DNA from: Psammoneis japonica
Taxonomy: Eukaryota
Direction: 5' to 3'
Assembly (NCBI GenBank): GCA_008632985.1
Contig: QPGO01000361.1
Location: forward strand, 1-40,246
DNA length: 40,246 nucleotides
Shown here: one piece after another, positions 1 through 40,246 of the stretch
Layout: the number at the start of each line of letters is the position of its first letter
Numbering within the stretch: the stretch's first letter is position 1
The notes under the pieces: model-generated
Told to the model about the DNA's origin: nothing
Seen by the model: the letters and a program-made list of their open reading frames with translations, nothing else
The model's database searches: none
Made by a program: the position numbers and the translations under genes

Positions 1-928
1 AAATGAAAAGGACAAATCAGGTGCAGCCAAGTGGAAGGCGGCAATGAGCTGTTTCTTCAACAACTTGGGGTCAAGCAAAGTTGACAAACAACATTGTTTT
101 AATGCCGCTGGTCTGTGGGCCACTGATGTGGTGTGCATGGCTTCTTCATTGGCAATGATGATGAAAGTTGTGTCCTCTTTGCCCAGCAGTTCTTCTTTTT
201 CAAGCTCATTTGAAGGCCAATTTCTGCTCTGAAATGGCATTTTGTGGCAAGGAGCAGTTTTTTTTTGCATTGACAGCATGGCCCACAATGCAGACTCATC
301 AGCCATTGTGATTGTGGGGAGGACAGCTGTTGGTCAGGTGCTGGCACAGAGCCACAAAATGGGGCCTGCAGCAAAGCTGTGGTCCATTGCAGCCCTTGTT
401 TCTGCTCCATTGCTGTGCTCATGAATGAAGGTCATGACTGAGGAGTGGCTGGTGACTTGCTGGATTGCTCAAATGATGATTCGGGAAGAAAACTCTTGGC
501 ACATTTGACTCAAGTTGTGGGCACACAAAAAACAGCTGGAATTTGACCCCCCTGAAGCCATGAAGCACACAAGACATGAGCATTGTCCTTCTCCCACTTT
601 TTAGATCAATGTCTTGAGCATGCAGCAGGCAGGCATTGCTCATGGCACTCCTGGACATTTGAGGGTGGAGCTGACTTTTTGCGAAGCACACTTGCAACAA
701 GGGAAAGTGCAAGAACTGATTTTCTCAGAGATGTTGTTGGTTGTTGGCCAGCAGCAACCTCCATTTCACAACCCCAAAGGTGCTGTTAACTTTGCATCTA
801 TTTGTGGGTGTTTTGTTGAAAAAGGGGGTTTGTTTTTGCATGTGTGAAAGCATGATGGAGCTGGGTCTAAGCCATGTCATGCTGCAGCAGCATGAGCACA
901 ATTGATTTTGTGTCACATCCATTCTTTA

Positions 929-1450
929 ATTGCACTCAATTCACCACAAGTGTCAAAATCCCTTGATGTGCATTGACACTCTGCTTGAGACAAATGACTG
1001 TTTGCTTGAGCACCCACTGAGTGCCAGTCATCATGGCAAATCACAGATCACAAAAGCCTTTGATTTTCTCGAAAATCTTGAGATTCGCAGGGGCAGGCAA
1101 GGTTGGGTGTGTGTGTCAAGGAAGAAGCCAACTGCCTGGTGTGCTGTGGTGCTTTGAGTGACACGCTGATGCAACACCAACAAGTGTGCTCACTGTGCAA
1201 CACTCTCCACACAAACTCTCCAAATGAGCTGCTCCAGTGACATGACGTCACTCCAAAAAAAGCACCAAATGTGCTTCCGTTGCCATTTGCCATCTTTGTG
1301 ATTCTGTCACTCTTGAGGGTCCTGTCATTGATTGTGCAAAACAATTGGCTTCATGCCAAGTGCATGAGTGTGGTTGAGAAGCATTGTTTGTTTGGTCCCG
1401 TTGATTCTCACACCCACAATTTGAAAGAAGATGTCTGCCACACCCATTCT
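929..1450 (+). pseudogene. Decayed copy of the upstream region and 5' end of the GT32 gene at 3228
   Basis: ORF 1271..1453 (FAIFVILSLLRVLSLIVQNNWLHAKCMSVVEKH) aligns with FAIFMILLLMRVLSLIVQNNWLRTECMSAVEKH of ORF 3228..4667. The upstream DNA aligns with ~2895-3230. Confidence 0.9.
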
Positions 1451-1456
1451 TGAAAT

Positions 1457-1560
1457 TGCAATCAATTCACCACAAGTGTTAAAATCACTTGGCGTGCACT
1501 GACACTCTGCTCAAAGACAAATGACCATCCACTCAAGCACTTGCTGAGAGTGCCCATCTA
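1457..1560 (+). repeat. Second decayed ~100-bp copy of the GT32 upstream segment (direct repeat of ~929-1030)
   Basis: Both places read caattcaccacaagtgt..aaatc..cttg..gtgca.tgacactctgct...gacaaatgac. Also similar to 2895-2995. Confidence 0.85.
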
Positions 1561-3227
1561 TCAGCATGCTTGTTCTCCAGGAATTCATGCTTCCCACGGA
1601 GGAACACGGCAAACCAAACACAGCAATCCTGGGGAATTTTGGGGAATCTCACAGCAAAATGCAGCTCACAGCAAGCACACTGCACCTTGAACTTTTTTTG
1701 CACATTGTGGTCAGCAAGGAAGGCTCTGCAGGCTTGGCACTCATGTGAGCAGGGCATTTCTGGGATGGAGTTTTGGAGCTGTGCGCAGCTCTTGTCAAGA
1801 GCGAACAAGAGACAACAGCCCTCATCAACTGTCTTTCATGATGTCAATGTGCTGCACTCCTCTGTCCTGCAAGCCACTGCAGCTGTGCCAACAGAAAAGT
1901 GGGAGTTTGACACACATGGGCTCCTCAAGAATGCCTGGGAAAAGGGTTGAGTGACCTGTGCAGGAGTCCAAATGGGGCACAAGTGCTTGGGCACATGTTT
2001 CGTGTGTGTTGTGCAAAATTGTGAGACCATTTTGCATGGAGTGCGTGCATGTGCAACAGTGGGACATGCAGAGCTTCAGTCTTTCCATGGAACCAATCAC
2101 ACTTGGCACTGTGTGTGTGTCCCACGCAGACCCTTCATGCAAGGTGAGTCACTTGCGCGATGGCCAGTTGCGCCGGTCTCAGTCGCATGGATCTCATGCA
2201 GCCACCCCTTGTGGGATTCACACTGGGAGTTGCATTTTCTAATGCACACTTCTGTGGGATCAGCATTGCTGTGGACAGCCTGCAGATGCAGGAAGGTGGC
2301 ATCATCACTTGGCGGCTGATGCTGGACAGTTGGCAGCACAAAGCTGAGATGTCCGGCCTCCTTCCACAAAAAGACCAGTCTCCTGCATGACTCAACAAAC
2401 AAGCAGAGAGATGGTGCCAAACAAGGCTTTGGATGTGCACTGAGCAGAATCAACAAGATGCCCATCTTTCCTTGCTTGAAACATGCTGAGAAAACTGACA
2501 AATGAGCCGACCATCTCGGCTGGTGCCTCCAGGCCCCTTCTTCAACTCAGTTTTGTCTCTTGTCTGTGCAGCAACAAAAAAAGAAGTGGGCAGATGAGAG
2601 GGGCTGCAGAACAAGAAGACATCCTGGGGAAAGACATTTTCAAATGGTGGATAAGCTGGCAAAATCCGCAACGCACTTCACACAAGTTTTGTGCCTCCAG
2701 GTGCCTTTCTCTGCTTTCCTGCTTCTCGCTTCTCGCACCACTCGCTGTGCACTTGCTGTGCAGTGCATGTCGTACCGTATCGTGTCTGTGGTTGGCAAGA
2801 CATTATCATTTTTTATGAGAGTGGGTCATTGCTGTTGTTTTTGAAATTTTTTTTATTTATCATCGGATAGTAAGAATAAGTATAGAATAAAGTATAAGTG
2901 TTAGAATTACTTAACATCTATTTACCTTCTATTAAGTAAAATTATGTCTTTGTTATTTATTGCAAACAGCCGTCCACTTAAGCGACCAACGAGTGCCGGT
3001 CATGACAGATCACAGATCACAATCGATTCAGATTCTTCCGAAAATTTCTCGCACACAGCAACAGCGAAAGATCTCAGATCGCACAAAAGGTAGGGGGTGT
3101 GTGTGTTGCCCGCCGGTGCTTCGGTGCTTTTAGTGCCGTGTTGAAACGACATCGATAGATACGCTCACTGTATCGTACTCTCTATACTGTCAGTAAACAG
3201 ATCCGTCGAACGAATTACTCCAACAAC

Positions 3228-4667
3228 ATGACGACACTCCGCAACAAGCACCAAACACGCGTCTCCTTTCGTCGAATAGTGATAAAACCTCCGTTGATAT
3301 TTGCTATCTTTATGATTCTGTTACTCATGCGGGTCCTGTCATTGATTGTGCAAAATAATTGGCTTCGGACCGAGTGCATGAGTGCGGTTGAGAAACATTT
3401 GTTTGCTCCCGTCGATTCTCACAACGGCAATTTGAAAGAAAAGGTTGTGCAACCAAATTCGTCCGAAAGAGTTCTAGCCAGGGGGGATGATGACAATAAT
3501 GATAAGTTTCAAAACAACGACATTCATGACCTTGAGGAGAGCTTCCGAGGTATGGGAGTAAAGTATCTACGTCGCATCCCCGTTGTTCCTTCCAACGAAA
3601 ATGATGAATCGGATGATGATGATGACGATAAGAACTCCGACGAAGACGTAGCAAAATCAATCCTTGCTCGTATCGCTAATGGCGTGGGAAACGACGATGA
3701 TGCATATGATGATGATGATGCAAACAGAAATGGCGATAGTTATGAGGACGACGACGATTCGGATGGCGATGGTGATAATTCTTACAACGATGAAGATATC
3801 TTTGTGGATGACAAGAACAACGCCAACGAGCCTCCTCCTCCTTTTCTCATTGTCAAGCCAGATGCTTCCATCGAGAAGATTGCAGAATTGCCCGTCGCGG
3901 CGACTGTTTCAGCGGAAGAAACTATTCCCCCGATTTTCCATTTTGCATGGCTGTCATGCAAAACCATGAGAGAGGGAGAGGCCAACAACCCCCCCGATCA
4001 CGTCATGAAAAACATGGCGAAATGGCAAAAGGTACACGCCAAGAATTGGACCACGGTTCTTTGGAACAACGAGATGGTTGGCCTTCACTTTCCACACTTG
4101 GTCGATTTGCTTTCGACCGTTTGGAACGAGTCGTGGGCGTCCGATATCGTCCGCTTTGCGGTTCTTGACAAGTTTGGTGGCATGTATCTAGACACGGACA
4201 ATGAGGTTGTACGACGCGTTGATCCAGTGGTCAATCAGTACACTTCCTTCACGGTCTGCCAGGGCCCAAGGACGGATGCTCCGGACGTGTCGCATCTCAC
4301 AATGCCATATGGAGGCTGCAAGGGCGTCGGTACTGCTGTCCTTGCAGCTAGAAAGGGCAGTGAATTCATAAAGGATGTATTGAATAACGCCATCAGGAAT
4401 TCCTGGATGACAATCAAGAACAGCATGGACTTTACACTGTATGTTGCGGGACCATGGATGCTTTCCCAATATACCTTCAAGCACAACATTGCCGTTTTGC
4501 ACGCCACCACCTTTTATCCGTGCGATGGCTACTGCTCCGCGAAACAGAGGCCGATATCAAGCTTCAAGAAATCGAAAACGACCTTTGGGGTGCACAGAGG
4601 AGCGCATTCTTGGAGAAATAAGATTACAAAAGATGACAGGCACGAAAAGATAATTACAGAATGGTGA
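3228..4667 (+). CDS. GT32 / OCH1-like DXD glycosyltransferase, type II membrane protein with an acidic stem
   Basis: 479-aa ORF with an N-terminal TM segment, an Asp-rich stem, and the motifs IPPIFHFAW and SDIVRFAVLDKFGGMYLDTD typical of the Gly_transf_sug family. Confidence 0.88.
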   Translation: MTTLRNKHQTRVSFRRIVIKPPLIFAIFMILLLMRVLSLIVQNNWLRTECMSAVEKHLFAPVDSHNGNLKEKVVQPNSSERVLARGDDDNNDKFQNNDIHDLEESFRGMGVKYLRRIPVVPSNENDESDDDDDDKNSDEDVAKSILARIANGVGNDDDAYDDDDANRNGDSYEDDDDSDGDGDNSYNDEDIFVDDKNNANEPPPPFLIVKPDASIEKIAELPVAATVSAEETIPPIFHFAWLSCKTMREGEANNPPDHVMKNMAKWQKVHAKNWTTVLWNNEMVGLHFPHLVDLLSTVWNESWASDIVRFAVLDKFGGMYLDTDNEVVRRVDPVVNQYTSFTVCQGPRTDAPDVSHLTMPYGGCKGVGTAVLAARKGSEFIKDVLNNAIRNSWMTIKNSMDFTLYVAGPWMLSQYTFKHNIAVLHATTFYPCDGYCSAKQRPISSFKKSKTTFGVHRGAHSWRNKITKDDRHEKIITEW

Positions 4668-5789
4668 CGGGTTGGGGCTCCTTTTACGATATGAAACATG
4701 AACTGTTGTTGCTGTGCTGAACGGAAATGTGATACTTTAAACAATTTAAAAAGGCAGACAAACCTCATTTCACCACCTCTTTTTCTTCTGGTCCAAAAGT
4801 GTTCGAAGCAGCAATGAGAATCCACAGCAACACGGCATCCGTCTGGGCTGTGCCTAAATGGATCTTAAAGTTTGAGCCGTGTGTTGAGCAATGCCTGAAT
4901 GCGTACCCGGTTCTTTGAAAGACAGGCAAAGTAGGGTCCCATGATCAACGGTAAAATAACAATGTTCTTGGGGCCAAAGGCACATGTCCTCTTCTGCAGC
5001 AAAACACGAATTTCTCACTGCGAAATCATTGCCGCATTTCCCTTTCATGCCACAGGAGGGTTACCCAGTGGATCGTTTCCATCACAAAATGGGCCATTGT
5101 GTTTCCTTTTATGCTGCATTTACTTGCCGCATGGATTCCATGTGTAATTCAGTGACTCTGTGTTGGGTGGAATCAATTTCAATGAATGTTGTGAGTCTTG
5201 TTTGACTCTGAAGGTTCTCACATGCTCATCAGCTCCAAGGTGCCACCACCAGGCACAGTGTGGTCAATTGGCAAAGAAGGAACTCACTCTTTTCAGGCTG
5301 TTGTGGGTTTGTTCCAGTTGGGATTCTGGGTCTTGCTCAGCAACTCAACGACTTGGCTCTGATGGAATTCAACATTTTCAAATTGACTTGATGCTTCTTT
5401 GACTTGCCATGTGCCTGCAACATCATTTCATTGAAACAGGCCATGATTTCCTCAGCAAAATCAGGCCAGCCAAATTTTCACTTTTGCACTTGAACTCTCC
5501 CCTGGCCAGACAAGGCAGTTCCAATGAAGAAGCCCAAGTCCCACAGTTGGCACGTGGCACTGAATCAGTTTTGATGAGCTCAAACATGATTTTGAGGACC
5601 CAATGATGCCTGCAACAGCTGGGTTCTTCTTGGCATAAAATGTGAACCTGTGGATGCCAAAGAGACAATGAAGGCTGGGTTGCCACCCATGCCAGGCCTT
5701 GGAAGAATGTGGGTGCTGCTCTGCATGTGCAGCCTTGCCAGAGTGCTTCCCACCTGCACTCCTTCATGAGCACACTTGTTGCCTGCTGT

Positions 5790-7100
5790 TAAAATGTGTG
5801 GCCTCATTGCTCCTTTTCACCCACTCTGTTGACTGATCTGACAGGCAAGGGAGCCACTTCAAACAATGGACAGCTGGCACCTGCCAGAGAGCAGTTGATG
5901 AGATGAAGGAAGTGATTGCACCCAAAGCACCACTCCTCACCTGTCTGAATGTAAACCCAACATGCCACATCCACACTGATGCATCTGACTGCTGGGTGGG
6001 TTCCAACTTCATTCAAGATGGTCAGCCTCTCATGGCAGCATGCTCATCTTACAAGCTTTTGCCAGCTCCTTGGCAGCATGCATGGCTGCTCAACAAGTTC
6101 TTCTCTACATTGCATGGGTGCATGCTGGCCACAAAAAACTCACTTCACACACCTTGAATTTGCAATGAGTCCTCAGGTGGCAACTGCTCCTTGAGGAGCA
6201 TGCTCCACATTTTGTTTGCATTGAAGGCAAGGAAAACATGCTCTTGTCTTTTCTTTCTCAGCTCCTGCACTTGGCTCCCCACCTTCAGAGGGAAAGAGGA
6301 AGTCAAGAATTGTCTGGCAATTGCAAAGGCGCAAGCCAGTCAATTTTGCAAACTTGGGTGTGTCAGAATTGACCAAGGATGAGCTTGAGAATGCATGCTG
6401 CTCAAGTGTGTGTGTGCTGCTTGTGAGAACAGCACGCAGTCCAGCAACACCTTTTTGTCCCTTTTTGGTTAGCCAGAGCTGTTCAAGTGCTGCCTTTTGA
6501 AATTGCCCCAGGTTGCAAGAGGGACAGAACCTGACAGAGATGCTGCGGTTGCAGCAGCTCCAGAGTTCAAGGAAGTGCAGTTGAGTTGATGGCAGCAGCA
6601 GAACACAAGAATCTTTGTTGTCAAGATTGTGAACAATTGTGCATTGATTTGTTGTCATCAGCAGCCAACTGGTCCTCCTGGAGCTGGGAAGATTTGCACT
6701 CTGACCAATTTGTTGTCTGACATTGCTGTGTGGTGCCACCATGTGCTTGGCACTGTTTTGTGGAGCCTGACTGTGCAGCTGCATGTGAACACTTGTGTGC
6801 ACACTTGTGTCATCCTGCATTGCACTGTGTTTGCAATGATTGTGGTGCTTGCCAATGTTGCAAGCATCTTGGGCTGGGCTGTGGCAAGCTGTTGGAAAAA
6901 AGGCTCCATTTTTTCTGGCCATGGGCTGAAGCTGCAGTCAATTTGATTGGCTTGCAGATTTGAGTTTAAAGCTCTCACTTGTGCCAATGCTGAGTTTTTG
7001 CTGGAAATTTTGCCAAATGTTGATGTTGAGGAGCCACCAAGCGGCAACTGTGCTGCAGCAACCGTCATCTCCAAATGAGTGCATCAAATGGCATCCAACA
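5790..7100 (+). mobile_element. Ty3/Gypsy LTR retrotransposon pol relic (RT connection, RNase H, integrase)
   Basis: Successive decayed motifs: WPH..LTDLTGKG..WT..CQRAVDEMK; HIHTDASDC..G....QDGQPL; HKKLT...Q*VLRWQLLLEEHAPHFVCIEGKEN; WCHHVLG; CGACQCCK..G.GCGKL....PWAEAAVNLIG. The RT-RH-INT order is Gypsy-type. Confidence 0.88.
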
Positions 7101-7299
7101 TTCTGTTCATTGTGCTTGTCATGTTGGCTCACCTGTCAATGTTCAGCAGGTGAGCAAAACAGCTGACACAGTGCTTTTTGGCTGCAGCTTTGTGTTTGAG
7201 CAGATTGCCCAACAACTGTGCTGCAAAATGATGCAAAAATGCCACCAAACTCATTTGGAATGGTGCATGACACATGGGAGCATGACAAAAACATCATCA

Positions 7300-7500
7300 A
7301 TGTCACAGTCCAGCTGTGCAAGGTCTCACCTGGAGCTGGTGGAGTGCACCAGCAAAGAAGATCCTTTGAGAACTCTGGCTGCCAAGAAGTGTGAAACATT
7401 GTTTGACTGTGCTTTGGGCAAGTGGAAAGGTGATCCCTGCCACAATCTCCAGCTGAAGGATGGAGTTGGGCCATTTCATGCTTGACTGTGTGACGCTCCA
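7300..7500 (+). mobile_element. Second Ty3/Gypsy fragment (segment just upstream of RT)
   Basis: KKCETLFDCALGKWKGDPCH.LQLKDGV.PFHA resembles the Gypsy KYETLFDGTLGKW.G.PY.I.LK.G..PYHA segment. It lies after the integrase, so it is a separate copy. Confidence 0.75.
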
Positions 7501-7629
7501 ATGGCCTTGGAGCCTTTGTGAGCAAAGCGCACATTGTGTGGCTCCTCGCCCCAGCCAAGCATCACACACAGCAGCCAACAAGCTGCCGGCTCCACGCCAA
7601 GGTGCAAACAATGATGGACAGATCGAGGA

Positions 7630-8370
7630 ATGTCAGACATGATGAGAGTCAAGCAAAGCGTGAAGGATGGACGTCATGTGGAGCCCAGCTCTCACCAGAG
7701 ATGCAATCATCGAGCACGTGGTGCCGAGTGCTTTCTTGGATTGTGCTTCGAAGTGCAATCCTCACCGCCTCTAACGCATCCGCTGGAAGCATCTGAGGAT
7801 TGTGCAACATCTCGTCTGCCAATCCTGCTAGAGCTTGGCACATCACTGAGCGATGGAGAGCTCCAAAATCCTTGTGGTCTCGGTCTCCGTTGAACTCATC
7901 GATGCCCCATTCCAATGGATTCTCTGCCATTTCCCGTTGCTCTTTGTCCTAGTGCTGAGGAAGAATGAACTTTCGTGGCTTCACCATTGTGTGCCAGGAG
8001 AAAACGAATGAATGCCTCAAAGGCAGAAACTCTCTTTGTTTGTGGTGGTTTCACTCGAAAACTCGACCCAATGCGGCGAAGGCTGCCGAGAGTCATTGCG
8101 GAAGATGTGCTGCCACCAGCCAGAGAGCAGAAGGCCACCACACCTGAAATTTTGGATTTGTTTGGCACTTTGCCATGCCAAGGGCCTGCCACACTGAAAT
8201 TTTCGACTCTGTCCAAAGCCACATTGGATTGGCTGCAAATCTCTAGTCTGTCAAAATTGCACCCTGCACATCTGTTCAACGATCTACCACGCGCGTGCCT
8301 CTTGTCACTCTGTCTCCACTCCACTGCACCGCATCTCGAAGCTAGCCAGCTGGCTCTCTGGAGGTGTGCT
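7630..8370 (-). pseudogene. Relic of an unidentified protein-coding sequence (TA-depleted, CpG largely retained)
   Basis: Overlapping ORFs 7896..8324 and 7649..7930 read like a globular protein but contain no Tyr, with His/Cys where Tyr would be plausible. Family not recognised. Confidence 0.45.
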
Positions 8371-11222
8371 CTCTAGAGCAGAGCGGAACCTGACTCCTGC
8401 AAATGTGCTTTGTGGCGGTGTTCCTCACTTTTCTGAGCTTTTGGCACATTCTTGGCATTTGCACCAGGAGACATTTCCAACAAAGTGTGAGAACAAAATG
8501 CTTGAACACAAGTGTGCATGTGTGTGCTGGAAATGTCAGTTTTGAGTTTTGTGCCAGCTGAAGTTGACACCCTTTCACAAAAAAACAGCGCTGAACCCGT
8601 GCATGTTTTCTGCCTGCAGGGCAGGCATGAACACATGTGTGCCAAGGTCATGATGCTGCCAAGCTTCATGTCAGCACTCATCACATTTTTCTGCATGATT
8701 TGCAGGAAGCTGTGCCCTTCTCAACTGGGGCAAGTTTCTTTTTTGGTGCCTCACACCCATCTCAACAACTCACTCTTGCACATGAATCTCCCACTCAGGA
8801 GAGCAAATCCTTGTGAACAATGGCGCTGTTTGCTGCATCTGCTGTGAAAAGTGCTGCTGCTGCCAGTGGAGTGGTGCCTCTGCCATGCCTCCTCTCCTGG
8901 CGGCCTTAAAACACCTTGTGCAGAGAGTGTTTGGGTGTTGCACAACTGCACCAGCACTGCCAGCCCTTTGTTCAACCCAGCTGCTTTGCCCTCAAAAGCC
9001 AGCTTCACCTCCAATGTGCTGCTGTGAAGAGCACAATGGCTTGTGTTTGAACCTGGTCCATGATCTGCTGACAACCGGCATGCCCCAGAGGTCAGCATTC
9101 TTGAAGCACTGCAGTTAACAGCTGCAGGTCTCAACTCACCCCAAAGATGATTTTTTGGAAAACACCACCCCTGATGAACATTTTAAGTGCTGCTTCAATG
9201 CCATCATGTGGAAAGCTGTGGCTCCTAAAAAAAGCCCTTGGCAGTCTCACTGGCTTGAAATTTTGCAGCCTGCAAAGCCAGAAAACAAGTGGAAAAAGAA
9301 CAAGCATTGTCAGCTTGGTCAGTTTTGTGCCCCTGGTGGGCACAGATCTCTGCAGTCATGTTTGCCTGCTCAGTGCAGCAGAGCCATTCAATCTCATGCA
9401 CTGGCAAAAACTGGCAAGACCTGGTGACAAGTGCTGCTCTTTGGCCAAAATGACAATGCTGGCTCTGGTTGTGTCACTCAATTTCTTGTCCACATTTTTT
9501 TCTGGACTCACTCTGGTGCTGCATGCATCAACCAACTCATGCAGCCTGTGACTGTGCTCTTCACTCTTGCTGCTTGCTTGTGACGTCCCGTTGAGCACAC
9601 ACACAAAAGCAGCACTCATGATGTCCATGTGCCCACTCTGCACATTTCCAAAAATGTGCTCTCTTTGCATCCATGCTGATCTCCAAAAATGTGAGCCTTG
9701 CACCAAGTCTCTTTGTGAAGTCCCTGTGCCAAAATCCTGCTTGTTTCCATGGCAGAGTTTTTTTTACAAGTGACACTTTTGTCCAGACATTCTTTTGGCA
9801 ATGACTTCTTCCACCTTCAATGACTCTGCTTGACTTGCTCCCAGCACCACTTCAGTTTTCTTTTTGGTGCACATTTCCTGCTGATGTGTGCTTCCATGTT
9901 TTTTGTTTGGCAAACATTTCTTGCAGCTGTGTTTGCTGCTTTGGTGATCTTGCACAAAAAGAGCTCTTGCCATCAGCATGTCTAGTTTTTGTCATTGGCT
10001 CACACCAAGAGAGCACGATCTGTTTTCTGACAAGTTCATTGGCAAAACAGCAGACATGTGGTTGCATCCACGGGTTGTCAACAAAGCAGCAGTCAGCCAC
10101 AAGCAGCCACAAGGTCATTTGTGAACCCAAAAAGTCAAGCTTCTTTGTGAAATTCTGCTGGGTGATGGCAATTGGAGAGCTCATTTTGACTCTCCAACAC
10201 TTTGTGCCTTGCAGGGGTTGTGAGCTCCAACTTGAGCTTGGGTCAAAAAATGCACCCAACCAATGAAAAGGGCTTTGTTGAGCCCCATTTCTGGTTGCAG
10301 TGTGCAAAAATTCTGGTGGCGCACATGCCCATGTCATGGCAAGATCTGCAGACCACCAGGGTCATGATGAGCAGCAAGTTTCTTTGTCAACTGGTGCTCA
10401 TTGTGTTGTGCCAAGCACATCAAAATGCTCGTCTCCTTCCTCTTGCAGCCAAGTGTTGTGCATCTTTGCTTGGGCTGCCCAGCTGATGGATTTTGCTGAG
10501 TTGTTCTTCTTGAGCTTTTTTCACACTTCTTCTGGCCAGCTGTGGCTGGTGTTGTCCAGTCAGTCAACAAACAAAAGAGTCACTGTTTGGAGTTGATGCA
10601 ACTCAACTTCTCATTGTTGGCGCATCATGTGTTTTCCTCATGTGGCAGTCATGCAGCACACCATCTCTTGTTTGCACAATTCAGAGAGAGGGGCAGAGTT
10701 TCACACACAACAGGTGGTTCCAGGTGAGCCCTTGCTTTTTAATGCTGCTCCAGAATTTCTCACAGAACAAAACACTTTCATGTCATCATCATCACATGAC
10801 AAAGTCATGTCATTCCTTGCCAACAATGCTCAGTGTTGACAAGCCAGCAATGAGTCATTGGGGTCTGATGAAAAATGATCATGTCTTTTTCTTCTGCTCT
10901 GCAGTGATGCTGCTGGCTACAGGCAATCTTTGTCATGTCTGTTGAGTGAATCTCTTGCAGTCATGTGCCTGCAGCACTTCGTTTGTTCAACAAGCACCTT
11001 GGCATTAAGCATCTTGCACCCTTGCTTGCTGTTGCAAGGGGATAACAAAAGAAAAAAGAGGTGCGACGCGGCGAAAACTCGGCATGGTTGCGGCGCAATT
11101 ACAAAAAAGAGGCAGTCTGAAGAATCATCCATGTACATTATAGTTTGTCATTTCAGCGCAAAAGTAGCCAAAAGGAACCTTAATGACTCGAGTGGCATTA
11201 GAAATATCCACCTTTTAGCTCA

Positions 11223-12262: not shown

Positions 12263-12677
12263 GGTTAAAATGCCAGCACAAAAGAACAAAAGTGCCTTCC
12301 GCCTTGCGTGCTTTTTGGTTGGATGGATGTGCCGGCAATGCGTTGAATTTATTTTTCGAAAATTTGGAATACGCACCTCTGGTACTAAATTTCTATGCAT
12401 GACGTCATCACGACTAAACGGCAGTTAATCGGAGGCGAACAATGACCACCAATGTCACACAGACACATGAAAAATGAGACACACACAACATGGACAAACG
12501 GACAAAACAGCTGTGCGCCAAAAGTAAAGTGGTGACGTGGTCCGATTCCGTCGTTGTTTTTTCCCGCCGACATCACATGATCCACCAGAAAACGAGGGGT
12601 GTCTTTTTTCAGTTGATCGACGACACCCCCTTTCTTTCATTCATTCTTTCAAGATAGAGCATCACATTTGAAACAAC

Positions 12678-23030: not shown

Positions 23031-23266
23031 CTCATGTCGGTCATTCGTTCGGTCATCGAAAGTCATTTGTGAACGTAATATTCTGATTTTAGTACGAGTC
23101 GAATTAGCATGGACATTTGTTTATGCCCTTCGATCGTTTCGCCGCGATTTTATTATGTCCAGCAATCGTCCACTTTTTCTTCTTGCATCCTGATTTTCCT
23201 TCGCAAATCACAGGCGACGTGCAATAAAGGGCGTCGAAACATCCGTTCAGTTATTGACGGAACAGG

Positions 23267-26739: not shown

Positions 26740-26825
26740 GACGCAAAGGCGTTGGAAACATTTTCTCGTTTGCACTGCTTCAAAGAACACTCACTTTAGA
26801 GCCAACTTGAAATCCATCTACTTGT

Positions 26826-27300
26826 ACTCCGGAATGCATCCGACGAGGCAAGTGCGACGGTGACTTTGGTCGCCCCAAGGACGCTTCTCAGCAACGCATT
26901 GATTCGATAGGCAAGGTGAAGGCATCTTGCCGATCGGGAAAAGATATCGCACTTTTCTCGCAACGTGACGGTTGCAATCCCCCTGTTGCTCCCATCCATG
27001 GACCAGTTCACGACAAAAAGGATAAGGAGGACAATGGTGCTCCACGAAGCGTCTATCCCAAAGACAAATTCATCGAGATGGTTCTCGAAAGAAATGAAAG
27101 ATGCGAAGATTCCGAGGACAGATTATTGAAACCGCAAGCACCGCATCATAACTCATTTTCTCAAACCATGGTTCCTCTTGGCTTCATTCAAAGACAAAGG
27201 GAATATGCTTAACTCTCACGAACATTGTTCAAGTGGAATCCACTTGCTAGTCTCTAGAACTGTTTCCTCATTGAACCTGTGTTTCATGGCAACTTTGTGT
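26826..27300 (+). pseudogene. Third, truncated copy of the M64-like gene 3' end and 3' flank
   Basis: Aligns to 26161-26510 and to 19780-20160 and 20360-20402. Carries frameshifting indels. Confidence 0.92.
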
Positions 27301-30305: not shown

Positions 30306-30409
30306 TGTCCCTTTTGCGTATTTGCGTGAATACGAAACTCCCTATTTTCGTATCTAACAAGTTTCTTATTCAATCTCTCACATTTTGTGTAGCATCCAAA
30401 ACAACAACC

Positions 30410-33855: not shown

Positions 33856-34420
33856 AGAGGCAAGATGCTATCCGTCGTGGAAGCATCGTACTACTAATAT
33901 TTGATACCATCCCTTACAATGTTTGTTCGCTGCGTCGATAATTGCTTCAAAAAGGAAAGTAGTGTGTAACAGAAATAGTTTACAGCTTTTTAATTCCTTC
34001 TGCATTCCTTTTGGAACTAGAGTGGTCAAGCCTACGAAACTCCTTTCCCAATTCCTGTACTACCTTTCATACGCATCGTAAGTCTCACTTATACGACCAA
34101 GGGCGATTGGTGCATTTGCTTCAGGAAGATTGACACTCAACAGCAAGCATCAGAATGCTGGTAAAAATACTTCCTTGAACGACGGCTATGCGTAGGTCAC
34201 GTGGCGAACTTTGGCAACCACACGCCATTCACTTGCTGGCGAAACTCTTGCTTGAAAGCCGAGAACCGATGGACGAGGATTGGCTTTTAGTAAACATAAT
34301 TGGTAATTCAATCTTCTATTGTGTATCATCTGGCTGGAATGGTAATTTTCTACCATCCTGGGCAACTGATGGAGAGTCTGACTAGTCTAAAGAACGCTGC
34401 TCTCTAACCAGTACATCGCA

Positions 34421-35241: not shown

Positions 35242-36180
35242 TATGCATGGACGGACGACTCATTTTTCAGATATTTTTTTTTAGGACCAGACCAATCGCA
35301 ACACCGACACCAAGAGCAATGCTTGTCGACACGTTTGAGCGGCTCGTTGTATCGGAGAGAGCGAGACTGCTCATGACATGACAACAACGCACCGGTAAGT
35401 TTGATGTCGTTTGTTTTTTACGAATGTCAAGTGCGAATTTTGAAATTTCGCGATTTCCAGATTACTGTATTCGAAGCTTCGAAGCACGATATGTAAAATG
35501 ACGTCATCTACCACGACATGTGAGCGCTCGTGCATGCACTTCTCTCTTCTGCTCGAGCTCTGTCGACGGCATAAGAAAAGATGACAACGCATTTGTCTGT
35601 GGATGACTTGAGGCATGCTGTGCTTGGAAAAATGGCCCAAGAGAGGGGTTGGTCAAAATGTGAGCCCATGGGGAAAGGCCTCAAGCATTGTTGTCTTGGC
35701 GTGTTGACTGGGTTTGCTCCAAAAGACCAGAGGTGGAATCTTGCCCGTCTTCAAATTGCAGCTTCTTGCAAGCTGCTGTCCATGGCACTGGTGCAGTGGA
35801 GAACATTGCAGCAGAGGATCCAGGTGCTCTCTTGGCAGAGAGGACAGCAATGAGGAGAGTGAGAAGAAGCCCCACCAACAAGAGAGGACATTTGCCAGTT
35901 GTTGACTCTGTTGTGAAGAGCCCATGCCAGGGACATTCCCGAATCCGCCGTCTCGAGACCATCTTGTCAAAATTGTCAATGCCTGAATGATGCACAATCG
36001 CCGTTAATTGTCACGTTTTGTCGCTAAACCAACAGTGCAGCATGCATGTATGTGCATTCCTGTATTTTGTTACAAACACACATTAAAAAGACGACATGGC
36101 GAGGCACTCTCATGGCTAAAAGCACAATGACTCAAGAACGAGTCACCTGGATAAAAGTCACAATTGTTGAACAGCACTTG

Positions 36181-36505
36181 TGACTCACAACAGCTCACGA
36201 CAACTCACGACAACTCACGACAACTTGCGACAACTCACGACAACTCACGACAACTTACGACAACTCACGACAACTCACGACAACTCACGACAAATTTCAC
36301 TTGACTCGCGACAAATCTTTAGACTGCACACATTAATTGAGTCATGTGAGTCATTGTGTTCAATTGCTTGCAGTGTGAATGTGACAAACAAGCGCTCCCG
36401 ACAACTCATGACATTTCTCACTCAACTCCCGACAACTCCCGGCAACTCCCGACAACTCACGACAACTCACGACAACTCACGACATTTTCGACAACTCACG
36501 ACATT
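36181..36505 (+). repeat. 10-bp minisatellite (CAACTCACGA)n in two arrays, ~36181-36295 and ~36395-36505
   Basis: Directly visible tandem units, with variants caacttgcga, caacttacga and caactcccga. Confidence 0.95.
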
Positions 36506-37644
36506 TTCGGCTTGTCAGGCATTTCGGGCCATTCGATTCAATGACCTTGGTGATTGATTGGCAGTTCTCGCCAAAATGATCGTTCATTGCATGCTTGCAT
36601 CCTTAGATTGCACAAGGGAACCAGATCTTCACTGATCACTTTGTGCATGTTAACAAACATTGTGCACGCATGCATGTCTCAAATTGTTGGGATCGCCAAA
36701 ACAAGAATGTCGTCGATGTCACATTCAAGAAAAGAAAATTCGCAAGTTGGCCGATTCGGGAATGTCCCAGATGAAGTGTGCAAGTTGTTGACAACCACAG
36801 GCTTGGATGATTTGCTCATTGGATGATCAATCACCACAAGTGCTGCAAAAGCAGGAGCAACATGTCTGTGCCAAGAACATCAGCAGGCTGTGCCAGCGCC
36901 CAAAAAGAAGAAAGGATTTGGATCATTTGTTGGCTGGCGCTGCTGTCGTGCCACTCCTTGCAAGCAGAGCTGCTCTTTCCACATGTGCCAAGAAGAAGTG
37001 AGAACTCAGTTGGTGGCAAAGGGAACAAAGTGTTGTTGGAAACAGCTTGCTGATCCTGTGAAAGCAGCTGAGTTTTGTGGCGAGGCCAGCATTTTGACTC
37101 CAACAAAGGGAACCTCAGGGAAGGAATGAGAGCAACATGGCATCACTGAATGAGATGTGAGAAACAACAATGGACAATCAAAGATGGGTGGCTGTTGTCA
37201 GAGCTTTTCTCCCAACTTTGATGAGAAAGTTGGCACAATCAAATGGACCGGCAAGGATGGTGCAGCTCACCAAACTGTTTGCATCACCACTGTGATGGGT
37301 GCAGCTGGTGTGACTTGTTTGTGCAACAGTTGCAACACAGGCACACAGTTTGGTGCAGCCTTGACCTCACATGTGCTAAATCAGTCAATTGCAGCTAACA
37401 TGTCTTGCATGAAATGCTGTCATGCAGCACATGAGGTGATGCAGAACAGCAAAAAGAGTCCAGCACTTCTTGTTGGAAAGCACAATGGCAAATTTTCAAG
37501 CAATTCAATGAATGGGCTGGCCGTTGTGGAGGAATTCTTGCTTGAGAAATTTGGGAAAGATCTGTTGATGGATGGCAACAATCAATGTCTTGGTGGCAAG
37601 ATTGCTGCTGGCAGCAATTGGGGAGGGAGATCAACTGAGGTTCA

Positions 37645-38030
37645 AAGCTGACATCATCAGGGAAGAAGCTGTGGGATGGACTTGAAAATTTCATTGCAGC
37701 TCTCACATGGAAAAAATTAAAACGAGGCATTGCACAAATTGTTGAGAGACAAAGATCCTGCTTTTTATGGAGTTGGAGTGTTGAAAATGCAAGGATCACT
37801 TCCACGAGGAGCAACGCAAAAGGAGGCAGCCACCCTCCAACACAGACACAAGCTGACATCTTTGGGAAGGAAGCTGTGGGATGAACTTGAAAATTTCCTT
37901 GCAGCTTTCACACAGAAAAGAATTTAAACAAGGCATTGTGCACAAATTGAGGGAGAAAGATCCTGCTTTTTGTGAAGTTGGCGGTCTTGGAAAATGTGAG
38001 GATCACTTCTTCCACATTGAGCAACATAAA
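37645..38030 (+). repeat. Diverged tandem duplication with a 205-bp period
   Basis: aagctgacatc...gaagctgtgggatg.acttgaaaatttc.ttgcagct...aaagatcctgcttttt...ggatcactt starts at 37645 and 37850. Confidence 0.9.
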
Positions 38031-40246
38031 AAAAATGTCTCAAAGAGATGAGAGTGCTGACAGGTGAACCACCAAGCAAGCAAGAGAAGGAAGCTAAGAA
38101 GAAGACATCAAATGTGATCTCTCAAGCTGTGTTTGTCCACCAAAATTGGTGTGGTGTTTTCAAAACAAAGCTTGAGAGAAAACCATTTGACAACTCCAAG
38201 GGGTGGCTTGAAGAGTTGGGGACTTGTCCCAAGCATCCACCAAGGGTGAGGCAGAGTCTGCCATTTGAAATTTTTCCCCATGACTCTTGGTGGCACATGC
38301 AACAAACTTGCACAGCTCAGAGCACAGACCAGAGATCCAGCCATCAGAAAGACAGCAGAAAGTGTCTTCTTCTCAGCCACCAACCATTCTTGCCCTTCCA
38401 CAACTCTGTGGGGCCATTTCATTTTTGTGTTTCTCTGCCTTGCCCAAAAAGCAAAAAAAAAATGCAGCATGAGCATTGTCATGTGGATGCACTGCAAGGG
38501 CACAAGCATGCACGCACCATTTGTTCTCAAAAACAAAGCTTGCCATCTGCAAACTTTTGATGCACATCAGAGCTTTTGTGGTGCACAAACAACACAAAAT
38601 GAATGAGAGTTGGAAGATTGACCACCTCCACTGCACTTGCCTGGATCTTCCAAAGTTTCCATTTGTTGCCATGTTGCAAGTGTTGCAAAATGTTTTTTCA
38701 GCAGAAAATCACGATGCAAACTGTGGCCAAATGATTTGAGCTTTAAAAAGTGGCAATTGGCCACTCTCAAGTTGTCCACTTTTTTGCCTGTTGTCAGTGT
38801 TTCAAAAAAAAAGGGACAAGTTGTCATTGTGGCTCATGCCATCAATCACACAAATGTTGTTGTTGTTTCAATCCTGATGACTTGATCCTGCCCCCTGGTG
38901 TCATTGCTTTTGGGCTTTGACCACAATTTTGTTGCAGCTCATGTGTTGGTTGTGTTAGAAGGATGACATTGCAACATCTTCATTCAAAGAAGAAACACAC
39001 ACATTGGTGTGGCTGTGCTCTGGCCCCACTCTCACTGCAAACCATGCAGTGGCTCACTGCATGAAACTGCACATGCATGTGATTGGTGCCCTGAGCCATC
39101 AAGTGGTTGGCAGCACACCAAAAACAACCTGACAGACAATGGCTGAAAATGTGGAAGGCAACAAGACATCCATCAAAAACCCACATGTCAGCCCATGCAG
39201 TGATTTCTGTTTGACAACCTGCATGCTTTGTTTTGGTGGTTTGCCACATTCTTTAAAGTCTCCACACTTCTGCTGTCTTGTTCATTGTGAGCCTCATTTT
39301 TCTGGCTCAATTTGGCATTTGACCCTCTGGAACAAATTGCGCGTGCACTTCTGCGCACATCCTCCCAAACCACAGCATGGTTTGCCAATTCTGCAGGGCT
39401 CTCATTGCTTGTCCATGCAGCAAATCATTCAGTGGTTTGACATTTTTCTGGCACTGCTCTGCAGTGCTTTCCAGGGATGAGAAAATCACCGCCAACGACC
39501 ACAGCCATGACGGTGATTTGACGGTGACCGCATGCTCCATCATGCACAAGTGGCAGCTGACAACATGCTGCATCAAGAATGGTGGCTTTTTTGTTGCTGT
39601 CAACAAGTTTTTTACTTGGAATCACTGCTTCATTTGGTCATTGGCGAGTTTCACGCTGTGCAAGTTGCGAGCCACTGAGTGGTTGGAGATTTTTTGCCCG
39701 AGTGTGTGGGCAGACAGCTGGAGAGCACATTGGGTGCATGCCATTGTTGTTGGGGCTTTTCCCTCCATCACATTTCCACCAACACCCCTTTCTGTAGATG
39801 CCAGGGTTCTGTGGTGATGGAGGGGTTGGGTCGGCAGGAATGTGTGGCTTGAGGGTGGTGCAAAAAAGATGGGCCGAGGGTGCAGACAGATGGTTGGAAG
39901 GAGGAGTTGTCATTGACAGTTGGGTGTTGGAGAAGGAGGGCTTGGCATGTAGAAAGGTGATTGGAGAGAGCGACGCCGAACTCAATGCTGAGGATTTGTG
40001 AGGCCCAAAGTTGGGGGGTTGCTTGAGGGTGATCGCGAGCTCGTGAGGCGTACGTAGGCACGCATCGCATGCGGTCATAATGAACAACCAGAAAGGGCTA
40101 TTGTGTTAGATTAGTCAGATAAGGATCTTCGTTTCGTATATCATCCTGTAAGAACTATTTAAGCACGTATATATGATGAATATAACATGTATCGAATACA
40201 GTATATTCAGCATTAAAAAGAAGAATATGCGAAGGTCTTCAACTGA

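What the first reader, a model, noticed from the sequence alone, without database searches (positions are those of the whole stretch)
1..39990. Locus-restricted TpA->TpG/CpA (A-to-G) plus CpG hypermutation: a candidate RIP-like genome defence process
Seen: four blocks (~1-2760, ~5150-11040, ~20520-23030, ~35580-39990, about 40% of the window) have almost no TpA (about 10 in the first 2760 bp), reduced CpG and excess TpG/CpA, while flanking genes and intergenic DNA have normal TA. Several internal alignments give the direction TA->TG or TA->CA, i.e. A->G in TpA on both strands. Established: 5mC deamination explains CpG loss, and fungal RIP (CpA->TpA) creates TpA. Neither removes it. Inference: a second, adenine-directed mutator acts on silenced transposon and pseudogene DNA. 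Candidates are a TadA/ADAT-like DNA adenine deaminase or error-prone polymerase-eta repair coupled to methylated chromatin. I know of no description of this in diatoms but cannot search. No enzyme gene is in the window.
Basis: partly seen in the sequence, partly recalled or inferred. Interest (0 to 1): 0.95.

Follow-up and report, generated by a model that had tools for sequence, protein, structure and literature searches.

The report
TA-erasing hypermutation in diatom junk DNA
In this diatom-like genome piece, four stretches of dead transposon and gene-copy DNA have had nearly every T-A step rewritten to T-G or C-A while the working genes beside them are untouched, a targeted DNA-mutating process so far described only once, in an unrelated alga.

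Summary
Four sharply bounded blocks (1-2778, 5111-11043, 20452-23079, 35495-40055; 15.9 of 40.2 kb) hold 75 TpA where about 630 are expected from the flanks. CpG falls to about a quarter, and TpG+CpA rise by the same amount.

The direction is TA→TG/CA:
- A mutated copy of the neighbouring glycosyltransferase gene's start keeps 0 of 16 TpA.
- A half-mutated gene fragment outside the blocks shows TpA transitions without CpG loss.
- Three conserved tyrosines of a retrotransposon RNase H remnant now read Cys, Cys, His.
- Repeats inside the blocks differ by TG↔CA double changes.

Contigs of a public run reproduce the TA-free sequence exactly.

This matches the TpA-specific hypermutation reported in 2026 for Bigelowiella natans (bioRxiv 10.64898/2026.01.13.699255), here in a diatom-like organism. 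It adds near-saturation, accompanying CpG decay and a flank rule (YTAR refractory).

It is not RIP: the direction is opposite, and long intact duplicates are spared. The enzyme is unknown and no candidate gene lies in the window.

The scan has already found this signature on at least nine other pieces of the same genome.

The parts
1..2778 (.). Block 1: TpA/CpG-erased DNA. It runs off the window's left end.
   Evidence: 11 TA and 34 CG against 328 TG and 309 CA. Shuffle means are TA 184 and CG 162. An X1 contig covers 1-1762 with 0 differences.
981..1435 (+). Hypermutated copy of the upstream region and 5' coding part of the glycosyltransferase gene, inside block 1.
   Evidence: DNA match 1276-1434 to 3290-3445 at 85% identity. 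tblastn matches GT residues 22-78, 71% identity, E 4e-19. A purine/pyrimidine-coded alignment extends the match to 981-1435 vs 2953-3446, score 175 against a null maximum of 112. Of 16 gene-side TpA, 7 became TG, 7 became CA, 2 became GA and 0 are kept. Of 29 CpG, 20 became TG or CA.
2953..4667 (+). Intact template: upstream region plus the glycosyltransferase gene (ORF 3228-4667), with normal TA content.
   Evidence: Pfam Gly_transf_sug, E 1.7e-10. TA O/E is 0.3-0.8.
4670..5110 (.). Graded left edge of block 2, downstream of the GT gene.
   Evidence: TA O/E 0.28 and CG O/E 0.45 in the window starting at 4751. The map of pyrimidine-purine steps shows the gradient.
5111..11043 (.). Block 2: TpA/CpG-erased DNA, partly of retrotransposon origin.
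   Evidence: 25 TA and 59 CG against 726 TG and 633 CA. An X1 contig covers 9011-10385 with 0 differences.
5837..6154 (+). Remnant of a Ty3/gypsy-type RNase H domain (RT_RNaseH_2).
   Evidence: Pfam E 8.8e-5, below the curated cut-off. phmmer found 9 hits with E ≤0.001, and the five scanned carry RT_RNaseH_2. Three Tyr columns of the unmutated relatives P0126 and P0128 (P0127 covers only two of the three) read C, C, H here.
20452..23079 (.). Block 3, between the two tandem M64-like peptidase genes. I found no ancestral comparator for it.
   Evidence: 10 TA and 35 CG against 273 TG and 237 CA. No Pfam hit and no paralogue in the window.
26821..27180 (+). c3: a partial third copy of the M64 gene 3' end, outside the four blocks and half-mutated.
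   Evidence: Taking sites where copies c1 and c2 agree as ancestral, TpA transitions are 7 of 24 bases, other A/T 4 of 144 and CpG 2 of 44. Fisher p = 1.2e-4 and 7e-3.
35495..40055 (.). Block 4: TpA/CpG-erased DNA.
   Evidence: 29 TA and 89 CG against 494 TG and 492 CA.
35990..36520 (.). Sub-region of block 4 with 10-nt tandem arrays. CpG is kept (O/E about 1.1-1.2 in the windows starting at 36001 and 36251) and 11 of the block's 29 TpA lie here.
911..1548 (+). Internal repeat pair of block 1 (911-1021 and 1436-1548).
   Evidence: 21 substitutions, including 4 TG↔CA double differences.
37645..38009 (+). Internal repeat pair of block 4 (37645-37802 and 37850-38009).
   Evidence: 27 substitutions, including 4 TG↔CA double differences. 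Control paralogues outside the blocks have 4 such doubles in 519 substitutions. Fisher p = 2e-13.

Best explanation
The four blocks are non-genic DNA: a retrotransposon remnant, a dead copy of a gene start, and unidentifiable sequence. They have been rewritten in place, at the DNA level, by a mutational process that turns the A:T pairs of TpA steps into G:C. Each TpA becomes TpG or CpA, roughly half each, with no strand coordination.

One hit destroys the target on both strands, so TA→CG is not seen. The process runs to near saturation.

Its speed depends on the flanks. R-TA-Y is erased fastest and Y-TA-R slowest, as if each strand were hit independently at a 5'-T-A-Y-3' motif (equivalently 5'-R-T-A-3').

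CpG decay to TpG/CpA occurs in the same blocks but lags behind and is separable. It is most simply explained by deamination of 5-methylcytosine in methylated repeats.

Targeting follows position or chromatin state, not sequence duplication: intact duplicated genes and promoters within 0.2-0.5 kb of the blocks are spared.

Shown here: the signature, its direction, its TpA specificity, its two-strand symmetry, the flank dependence and the sparing of duplicates.

Inferred: that this is the same kind of process measured live in Bigelowiella natans; that the agent is a polynucleotide adenine deaminase of the TadA/ADAT2 kind acting on DNA (A→inosine→G); and that it serves as a genome defence.
For: Signature and budget. 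There are 75 TpA against about 630 expected from the flank frequency. The TA+CG loss of 76 per 1000 matches the TG+CA gain of 72 per 1000.

Direction.
- In the mutated gene-start copy, 14 of 16 gene-side TpA are now TG or CA, 2 are GA and 0 are kept. In the well-aligned core, 6 of 6 TpA are lost, and other A/T transitions are 9 of 104 (p = 0.001).
- In c3, 7 of 24 TpA bases changed by transition against 4 of 144 other A/T bases. There is 1 TpA transversion.
- Three conserved Tyr columns of the RNase H relatives read Cys, Cys, His in the window.
- Two block-internal repeat pairs carry 8 TG↔CA double differences in 48 substitutions. Four control pairs carry 4 in 519.

Both strands, independently. 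The TG fraction is 0.50-0.54 in every block, and runs tests give z from -1.8 to +1.5.

Flank rule.
- 43 of the 75 surviving TpA are YTAR, against 14% of flank TpA and 22% expected if survivors were new TpA made from TG or CA.
- Survival is 2% for RTAY, 7-10% for RTAR and YTAY, and 48% for YTAR.
- An additive two-strand model fits with chi-square 2.4, against 141.6 for uniform survival.

Separable from CpG decay. c3 has 2 transitions in 44 CpG bases. Five windows have low TA but CG O/E >0.5, and none shows the reverse.

Not duplication-triggered. M64 copies c1 and c2 are 93% identical over 1912 bp. They show 3 and 1 derived changes, none of them at TpA.

Not an artefact. X1 contigs at word depth 33-34 match 1-1762 and 9011-10385 with 0 differences.

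Continued after the sequences diverged. In the X1 contig over 4146-5930, 11 of 19 differences lie at TA/CG↔TG/CA steps, including 2 TG↔CA doubles.

Precedent. In B. natans mutation-accumulation lines, 230 of 231 mutations in two integrated viral regions were A→G or T→C, and all of these fell on TpA (bioRxiv 10.64898/2026.01.13.699255, Results read).
Against: - No enzyme gene lies in the window and no whole genome is held. The deaminase is pure inference.
- Sequence alone cannot tell an attack on A from an attack on T.
- Block 3 has no ancestral comparator. For blocks 2 and 4 the direction rests on few sites: 3 Tyr columns, 2 allele doubles and 4 repeat doubles.
- Flank DNA stands in for the ancestral composition in the survival and budget calculations. 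At tetranucleotide level that proxy is noisy.
- Which flank matters is unresolved. Block-level budgets favour T-A-Y, but the 7 discriminating events in the alignments split 4 to 3 (my reading).
- The purine/pyrimidine-guided alignment is blind to transitions, so it leans towards them. Other A/T transitions there are 35 of 205.
- X1 may be the sample the window was assembled from, so it is not independent support.
- Methylation, chromatin state and silencing were not measured.
- No TA-erased window turned up in the roughly 20 probably eukaryotic loci (at least 56% identity) among 80 metagenome loci around relatives of a neighbouring gene, so breadth beyond this genome is not shown.
Confidence: 0.8

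Rival explanations
1. Thymine, not adenine, is the base attacked. A TET/JBP-type oxidase converts T in TpA to 5-hydroxymethyl- or 5-formyluracil, which mispairs with G and gives T→C. The motif would then be R-T*-A.
For: The sequence signature is identical under this model. TA→CA and TA→TG are near 50:50, and the flank rule can be written as R-T-A. That oxidised thymines mispair with G, and that some protists carry hmU preferentially at TpA, is recalled knowledge and comes from no call.
Against: There is no evidence here for such a modification or enzyme. The only experimental report of the signature proposes adenine deamination, also without proof.
Confidence: 0.1
2. Error-prone patch repair. 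T:G mismatches from 5mC deamination recruit non-canonical mismatch repair, and polymerase eta then miscopies at WA motifs, as in phase II of antibody hypermutation.
For: TpA loss and CpG loss occupy the same blocks. The WA hotspot of polymerase eta includes TA (recalled knowledge).
Against: - c3 has lost 7 of 24 TpA bases with only 2 transitions in 44 CpG bases, so TpA loss does not wait for CpG deamination.
- ApA is barely lowered, 83.3 vs 92.5 per 1000.
- Transversions at TpA are rare: 1 against 7 transitions in c3, and 0 against 6 in the gene-start core.
- The B. natans spectrum is 230 of 231 transitions.
Confidence: 0.06
3. RNA editing before integration. Transposon transcripts are hyper-edited A→I at UA sites (ADAR- or ADAT-like) and then reverse-transcribed, so the copies arrive already mutated.
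For: Block 2 holds a retrotransposon RNase H remnant. RNA editing enzymes favour a U before the edited A (stated in the preprint's Discussion).
Against: - Both strands are hit equally and the outcomes are interleaved.
- A copy of a host gene's promoter and 5' end, and a gene 3' fragment, are mutated too.
- Repeats inside the blocks diverged by TG↔CA doubles after duplication.
- Differences from the X1 contig are of the same type.
- In B. natans the mutations arose in situ in integrated DNA.
Confidence: 0.02
4. Artefact or native composition. Either the bases are miscalled (for example at modified DNA), or the blocks are foreign DNA that always lacked TA and CG.
For: Extreme dinucleotide bias in sharply bounded blocks could come from a foreign source. 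The library type of the supporting run is not on record.
Against: - Contigs of run X1 at word depth 33-57 reproduce the block sequence, two of them with 0 differences.
- Homologous unmutated sequence in the same window carries TA and CG at the aligned sites.
- Relatives of the RNase H remnant carry Tyr where the window has Cys or His.
Confidence: 0.02

Closest known systems
TpA-restricted hypermutation of integrated giant-virus and virophage DNA in Bigelowiella natans (Mettrop et al., bioRxiv 10.64898/2026.01.13.699255, 2026)
   Same: The changes are almost only A→G/T→C, confined to TpA, and give TpG and CpA. They are restricted to particular loci of non-host or selfish DNA, and leave TpA-poor, CpA+TpG-rich clusters in the genome.
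   Different: - The organism here is diatom-like (stramenopile), not a chlorarachniophyte (rhizarian).
- The targets are a retrotransposon remnant and dead gene fragments. No viral domain was found.
- Erasure is near-complete: TA O/E is 0.03-0.1, against Rho(TpA) of 0.45 in their NCLDV region.
- CpG is co-depleted, and there is a flank rule with YTAR refractory. A term search of the preprint's main text finds no mention of 'CpG', 'trinucleotide' or 'flanking'.
- No live mutation rate is available here.
Repeat-induced point mutation (RIP) of ascomycete fungi
   Same: It is a locus-restricted, near-saturating transition hypermutation of selfish or duplicated DNA. It leaves a dinucleotide signature and sharply bounded blocks next to intact genes.
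   Different: - RIP turns CpA into TpA and so makes TpA. Here TpA is destroyed.
- RIP mutates both copies of a duplication. Here the 1.9-kb duplicates at 93% identity and the template of the dead copy are untouched.
- RIP lowers GC. Here the blocks have slightly higher GC than the flanks, 48.8% vs 46.4%.
CpG decay by 5-methylcytosine deamination in methylated transposons (diatom TE methylation by DNMT5a: Hoguin et al. 2023, PMC9998398, passages read)
   Same: CG→TG/CA transitions are concentrated in repeat DNA. In the mutated gene-start copy 20 of 29 CpG became TG or CA, and CG O/E is 0.0-0.3 in most block windows.
   Different: It explains only the CpG half of the signature. TpA contains no cytosine. 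CpG loss here is slower and patchier than TpA loss. Methylation itself was not measured.
A-to-I editing by ADAR or ADAT/TadA-family deaminases
   Same: The edited A prefers a 5' U/T. The natural TadA/ADAT substrate is U33-A34 in the tRNA anticodon loop, and a pyrimidine often follows in TadA's own substrate (recalled). This resembles the T-A-Y reading of the flank rule.
   Different: Those enzymes act on RNA. Here the changes are fixed in DNA on both strands, in situ. No deaminase gene was examined.

Membership tests
Bigelowiella-type TpA hypermutation | Mutations are almost exclusively A:T→G:C transitions. | tested here: met
   At TpA there are 7 transitions and 1 transversion in c3, and 6 transitions and 0 transversions in the gene-start core. 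In the extended alignment 14 of 16 TpA became TG or CA.
Bigelowiella-type TpA hypermutation | Mutations are confined to TpA dinucleotides. | tested here: met
   TpA bases changed at 7 of 24 against 4 of 144 other A/T bases (p = 1.2e-4), and at 6 of 12 against 9 of 104 (p = 0.001). No TA→CG was seen.
Bigelowiella-type TpA hypermutation | Both outcomes, TpG and CpA, occur (either strand). | tested here: met
   The TG fraction is 0.50-0.54 per block with no runs. The extended alignment gives 7 TG and 7 CA.
Bigelowiella-type TpA hypermutation | Restricted to particular loci of foreign or selfish DNA, with host genes spared. | tested here: met
   Four sharply bounded blocks lie between intact genes. 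Their content is an RNase H remnant and dead gene fragments. Blocks 3 and 4 are of unknown origin.
Bigelowiella-type TpA hypermutation | An elevated de novo rate measured in living lines. | not testable with these tools
   There is only indirect evidence. In one X1 contig, 11 of 19 differences from the window lie at TA/CG↔TG/CA steps.
Fungal RIP | C→T at CpA, creating TpA and lowering GC. | tested here: not met
   TpA is destroyed, 4.7 vs 40.5 per 1000. Block GC is 48.8% against 46.4% in the flanks.
Fungal RIP | Triggered by duplication, with both copies mutated. | tested here: not met
   M64 c1 and c2 (93% identity over 1912 bp, 88% over 1237 bp) keep normal TA and show 3 and 1 derived changes. 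The template 2953-3446 of the dead copy is intact. Selection against mutated functional copies cannot be excluded.
Fungal RIP | Dependence on a RID/DNMT4-type cytosine methyltransferase homologue. | not testable with these tools
   No genome is held. DNMT4 relatives exist in many diatoms and their function is unknown (PMC9998398, passages).
5mC-driven CpG decay | CpG→TpG/CpA transitions in repeat DNA. | tested here: met
   20 of 29 CpG became TG or CA. CpG survival is 23-33% in all four flank classes.
5mC-driven CpG decay | Cytosine methylation of the affected DNA. | not testable with these tools
   No methylation data could be reached.
RNA-level A-to-I hyperediting of retroelements (ADAR-type) | One-strand bias, confined to retro-copied sequence. 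| tested here: not met
   TG and CA counts are about equal and interleaved. Non-retroelement DNA is affected.
Polymerase-eta WA-motif mutagenesis | A→G at both TA and AA, with a sizeable share of transversions. | tested here: not met
   AA is 83.3 vs 92.5 per 1000. Transversions are 1 of 8 TpA changes in c3 and 0 of 6 in the gene-start core. The numbers are small.

The most novel reading that the evidence does not exclude
Diatoms and chlorarachniophytes share an ancient, chromatin-directed DNA-editing defence. In this reading, a TadA/ADAT2-like deaminase with a T-A-Y motif, in effect a natural adenine base editor working on genomic DNA, is recruited to silent or foreign DNA regardless of copy number. 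It erases TpA until the target is unreadable and then goes quiet because it has consumed its own motif. It also leaks into the ends of neighbouring genes. Here, the other sequence version of the glycosyltransferase gene's 3' end carries Y430H and I443M at TpA sites. Such leakage would speed up the evolution of genes next to repeats and distort every age estimate based on transposon divergence.
Probability: 0.3. Interest if true: 0.9.

Novelty: new member of a known kind. Interest (0 to 1): 0.62.

Why it matters
- **A possibly widespread process.** A TpA-erasing hypermutation has been reported only once, in a 2026 preprint on a rhizarian alga. Finding it at near-saturation in a diatom-like genome suggests it is widespread among the SAR lineages and ecologically relevant, since diatoms are major primary producers.
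- **A possible natural DNA base editor.** The unknown enzyme may edit adenine in DNA. If so, it would interest both genome-defence biology and genome engineering.
- **Effects on routine genome analysis.**
  - Hypermutated DNA loses the TAA and TAG stop codons, so gene callers produce long spurious ORFs. A tyrosine-free 699-aa RT/RNase H 'protein' in a public collection is one example.
  - Homology searches fail on such DNA.
  - Transposon ages based on LTR or copy divergence are inflated.
- **Handles for experiments from this window.**
  - A flank rule with YTAR refractory.
  - TpA loss precedes and is separable from CpG loss.
  - Duplication is not the trigger.

Tried and rejected
- **Whole genome.** None is held, so I could run no genome-wide profile and no enzyme search.
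- **Pfam on the blocks.** I scanned 46 block ORFs and six read-through frames of block 2. Only the weak RT_RNaseH_2 hit appeared.
- **tblastn of 10 window proteins against the blocks.** Only the GT 5' fragment matched.
- **Word-indexed search with the RNase H remnant** (lengths 'longer'): nothing. The full phmmer scan gave 9 hits.
- **Purine/pyrimidine-coded self-comparison.** This coding is blind to transitions. Two block-related matches exceeded the null: the gene-start copy and block 4's internal repeat. Nothing matched block 3.
- **Breadth test.** I took 80 metagenome loci around relatives of the neighbouring phosphoglycerate-mutase-like gene. About 20 of them, with at least 56% identity, are probably eukaryotic. 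No TA-erased window appeared. The only 4 flagged windows are in three loci of 56-74% GC that look bacterial. This weak test is no evidence of absence.
- **Which flank sets the rate.** R/Y-class budgets favour T-A-Y. Left open.
- **Strand-coordinated clusters** (kataegis-like): none.
- **Sequencing runs.** No RNA holder is listed. Run X2, labelled 'DNA?', has next to no cover on the blocks, and X3 laid nothing. Neither counts as evidence on expression or silencing.
- **tRNA and Rfam scans of the window:** nothing.
- **Earlier-findings look-ups** by relatives and by 'order/kinetics' words: nothing.
They may hold flank-context data that bear on the YTAR rule.

Full report
**1.

The window as a whole has TA O/E 0.38, CG 0.68, TG 1.43 and CA 1.40. 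The bias is concentrated in four blocks: 1-2778, 5111-11043, 20452-23079 and 35495-40055.

| Block | TpA seen | TpA shuffle mean (lowest of 500) | CpG seen | CpG shuffle mean |
|---|---|---|---|---|
| 1-2778 | 11 | 184 (151) | 34 | 162 |
| 5111-11043 | 25 | 391 (350) | 59 | 347 |
| 20452-23079 | 10 | 133 (108) | 35 | 162 |
| 35495-40055 | 29 | 324 (286) | 89 | 249 |

(Counts, shuffles.)

Per 1000 dinucleotides, blocks against flanks, TA falls from 40.5 to 4.7 and CG from 53.9 to 13.7. TG rises from 71.7 to 114.6 and CA from 76.0 to 105.1. The loss of 76.0 matches the gain of 72.0.

Boundaries are sharp to within tens of bases. The exception is the left edge of block 2, which is graded over about 4670-5180.

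**2. What lies between and inside the blocks**

Between the blocks lie long, intact ORFs:
- a DXD glycosyltransferase (3228-4667);
- two histidine-phosphatase/phosphoglycerate-mutase-like genes;
- two tandem M64-like peptidase genes.

The closest named relative of one of these genes comes from the pennate diatom Cylindrotheca fusiformis, at 69% identity. I therefore call the organism diatom-like.

Inside the blocks almost nothing is recognisable. Of 46 ORFs and six read-through frames, only a weak RT_RNaseH_2 match at 5837-6154 appears. A full phmmer scan gave 9 hits with E ≤0.001, and all five that I scanned carry RT_RNaseH_2. Block 1 holds a dead copy of the glycosyltransferase gene's start.

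**3. Direction of change**

Five independent comparisons give TA→TG/CA, and CG→TG/CA.

(a) *Dead copy of the gene start against its intact template.*
- In the well-aligned core, all 6 gene-side TpA are lost (2 to TG, 4 to CA).
- CpG bases show 8 transitions in 26.
- Other A/T bases show 9 transitions in 104 (p = 0.001).
- All the changes are transitions, so I re-compared the window in a purine/pyrimidine alphabet. This extended the homology to 981-1435 against 2953-3446, with score 175 against a null maximum of 112.
- Over that span, of 16 gene-side TpA, 7 are now TG, 7 are CA, 2 are GA and none is kept. Of 29 CpG, 20 are now TG or CA and 4 are kept.
- This alignment is blind to transitions and so leans towards them.

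(b) *Partial third copy of the M64 gene's 3' end (c3, 26821-27180).* It lies outside the four blocks. The two intact copies serve as the ancestral state wherever they agree.
- TpA bases: 7 transitions in 24.
- Other A/T bases: 4 in 144 (p = 1.2e-4).
- CpG bases: 2 in 44.
- The intact copies show 3 and 1 derived changes, none of them at TpA.

(c) *RNase H remnant.* At the three columns where the unmutated relatives P0126 and P0128 carry Tyr (P0127 covers two of the three), the window reads Cys, Cys and His. These are the changes expected from TAY→TGY/CAY.

(d) *Repeat pairs inside the blocks.* Two pairs, one in block 1 and one in block 4, differ by 4+4 TG↔CA double substitutions among 48 substitutions. 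Four control paralogue pairs outside the blocks have 4 such doubles among 519 (p = 2e-13). Such doubles are what two independent resolutions of one ancestral TA or CG leave behind.

(e) *Public-run contig over 4146-5930.* It differs from the window at 19 places. Eleven of these lie at TA/CG↔TG/CA steps, and they include two TG↔CA doubles.

**4. Not an artefact, not native composition**

Contigs of run X1 at word depth 33-57 reproduce the block sequence. Two of them, over 1-1762 and 9011-10385, have no difference at all. X1 may be the sample the window was assembled from, so this is not fully independent. It does exclude a one-off assembly or polishing error. The alignments in section 3 exclude a natively TA-free origin for blocks 1, 2 and 4. 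Block 3 has no comparator.

**5. How the process behaves**

- *Both strands are hit, independently.* The TG fraction is 0.50-0.54 in every block. The order of TG and CA along the blocks is random, with runs-test z from -1.8 to +1.5. This argues against one-strand RNA editing before retrotransposition. It also argues against long strand-coordinated deamination tracts.
- *One hit destroys the target on both strands.* No TA→CG was seen.
- *The flanks matter.*
  - Of the 75 surviving TpA, 43 are YTAR: TTAA 20, CTAA/TTAG 17, CTAG 6.
  - That compares with 14% of flank TpA, and with 22% expected if survivors were new TpA made from TG or CA.
  - Survival relative to the flank frequency is 2% for RTAY, 10% for RTAR, 7% for YTAY and 48% for YTAR. 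CpG survival is flat at 23-33%.
  - A model in which each strand is hit independently fits the ten classes, with chi-square 2.4. Its rate is set by the base 3' of the A (T 2.57 > C 1.75 > G 0.60 > A 0.22), or equally by the complement 5' of the T. Uniform survival gives chi-square 141.6.
  - Which of the two flanks is read stays open. R/Y budgets favour T-A-Y.
- *TpA loss and CpG loss are separable.* c3 has lost TpA but not CpG. Five of 159 windows have TA O/E <0.15 with CG O/E >0.5. None has CG <0.3 with TA >0.3.
- *Duplication is not the trigger.* The M64 duplicates (93% identity over 1912 bp, 88% over 1237 bp) and the intact template of the dead gene-start copy, 175 bp from the block edge, keep normal TA.
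- *The blocks fill the space between genes.* They reach to within roughly 200-450 bp of the ORFs. That fits targeting by position or chromatin state, which I could not measure.

**6. Comparison with what is known**

Fungal RIP is the nearest classical analogue in logic, but its defining features fail here. RIP makes TpA from CpA, lowers GC and mutates both copies of a duplication.

The same kind of process was described in April 2026 for Bigelowiella natans (bioRxiv 10.64898/2026.01.13.699255; abstract, Results and Discussion read):
- In mutation-accumulation lines, 230 of 231 mutations in two integrated viral regions were A→G or T→C. All of these fell on TpA.
- The rate was about 1000-fold above background.
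- The genome holds 124 TpA-poor, CpA+TpG-rich clusters.
- An ADAT2-like deaminase was proposed but not tested.

A term search of that text finds no 'CpG', 'trinucleotide', 'flanking' or 'diatom'. Six searches of the paper library found no report for diatoms. Diatom transposons are known to be CpG-methylated through DNMT5a (PMC9998398, passages read). That gives an ordinary explanation for the CpG half of the signature.

**7. Mechanism and rivals**

I hold it most likely that this is an in-situ, TpA-directed A:T→G:C DNA hypermutation of non-genic DNA, of the Bigelowiella kind, with CpG decay riding along (0.8).

That the agent is a TadA/ADAT2-type adenine deaminase is inference. It is supported only by the 5'-T requirement and by the possible T-A-Y motif, which recalls the U33-A34 context of tRNA editing (recalled knowledge).

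Rivals:
- oxidation of thymine with mispairing (0.1), which sequence cannot distinguish from an attack on adenine;
- polymerase-eta patch repair after 5mC deamination (0.06), disfavoured by c3, by the purity of the transitions and by the sparing of ApA;
- RNA editing before integration (0.02);
- artefact or native composition (0.02).

**8. Standing of the finding**

The scan has already reported this signature on at least eight other pieces of the same genome. It has also reported the YTAR rule on one more piece. I reached the preprint, the direction and the flank rule from this window's own data, and the earlier notes agree with them.

What this window adds:
- a half-mutated fragment that orders TpA loss before CpG loss;
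- the sparing of long intact duplicates;
- confirmation of the bases by contigs of a public run;
- possible leakage into the 3' end of the neighbouring gene in the other sequence version: Y430H, I443M and S444P, plus two synonymous CpG changes within 43 bp.

I class it as a new member of a very recently described kind. Interest is moderate to high.

Noticed in passing
P0125 (public protein, NCBI source, on a 2273-nt contig); also P0123: P0125 is a 699-aa RT + RNase H ORF that fills its contig and has 0 tyrosines in 699 residues. Typical relatives here have 4-6%. The Tyr of the conserved YxDD motif (motif recalled) reads His. This is the same TpA-erasing signature in another public record of unknown organism. 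It also shows that such DNA yields long spurious ORFs. P0123 has 0 Tyr in 89 residues.
   Followed up: partly
window 4515-4557 (3' end of the glycosyltransferase ORF): The X1 contig differs from the window at 5 sites within 43 bp, all transitions, and 4 of them lie at TA or CG steps. The effects are Y430H, S437S, A438A, I443M and S444P. The hypermutation may be leaking from block 2 into the gene's end in another allele or strain.
   Followed up: partly
window 16342-20103, 23267-26485, 26821-27251: Two tandem genes for M64-like peptidases with Pro/Thr-rich repeats (1253 and 1072 aa) lie here, with a partial third copy of the 3' end. Block 3 sits between the two full copies.
   Followed up: partly
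window 12678-13739 and 14038-15510: Two adjacent histidine-phosphatase (phosphoglycerate-mutase-like) genes lie here, only about 64% identical at DNA level over 216 bp.
   Followed up: no
window 33336-33860: Tandem repeats of 159 nt (70-87% identity) lie inside a GC-rich ORF (33094-33855) that has no Pfam match.
   Followed up: no
window 36161-36312 and 36403-36504: Tandem arrays of a 10-nt unit (consensus CAACTCACGA) lie inside block 4 and keep their CpG. Unit variants read CTTACG and CTTGCG beside CTCACG, that is TA, TG and CA at one step.
   Followed up: no
window 2016-2273 and 7203-7238: These short segments have very high word depth in run X1 (about 911 in the bin 2002-2668, and 641 at 7235). 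The loose ends running out of them carry TA and CG. They are pieces of high-copy repeats whose other copies look less mutated.
   Followed up: no
window 11328-20000 (run X2): X2 is labelled 'DNA?', but its contigs join across short segments (for example 11598→11687, 88 nt, ends CT..AC) and one ends in a run of A at 15546. It looks RNA-derived. The joins would mark introns in genes that the six-frame ORF list shows as split.
   Followed up: no
window 30548-31012: This 465-bp stretch between two minus-strand ORFs has 5 TA, TA O/E 0.18 and normal CG. It may be another partly TpA-mutated fragment like c3.
   Followed up: no
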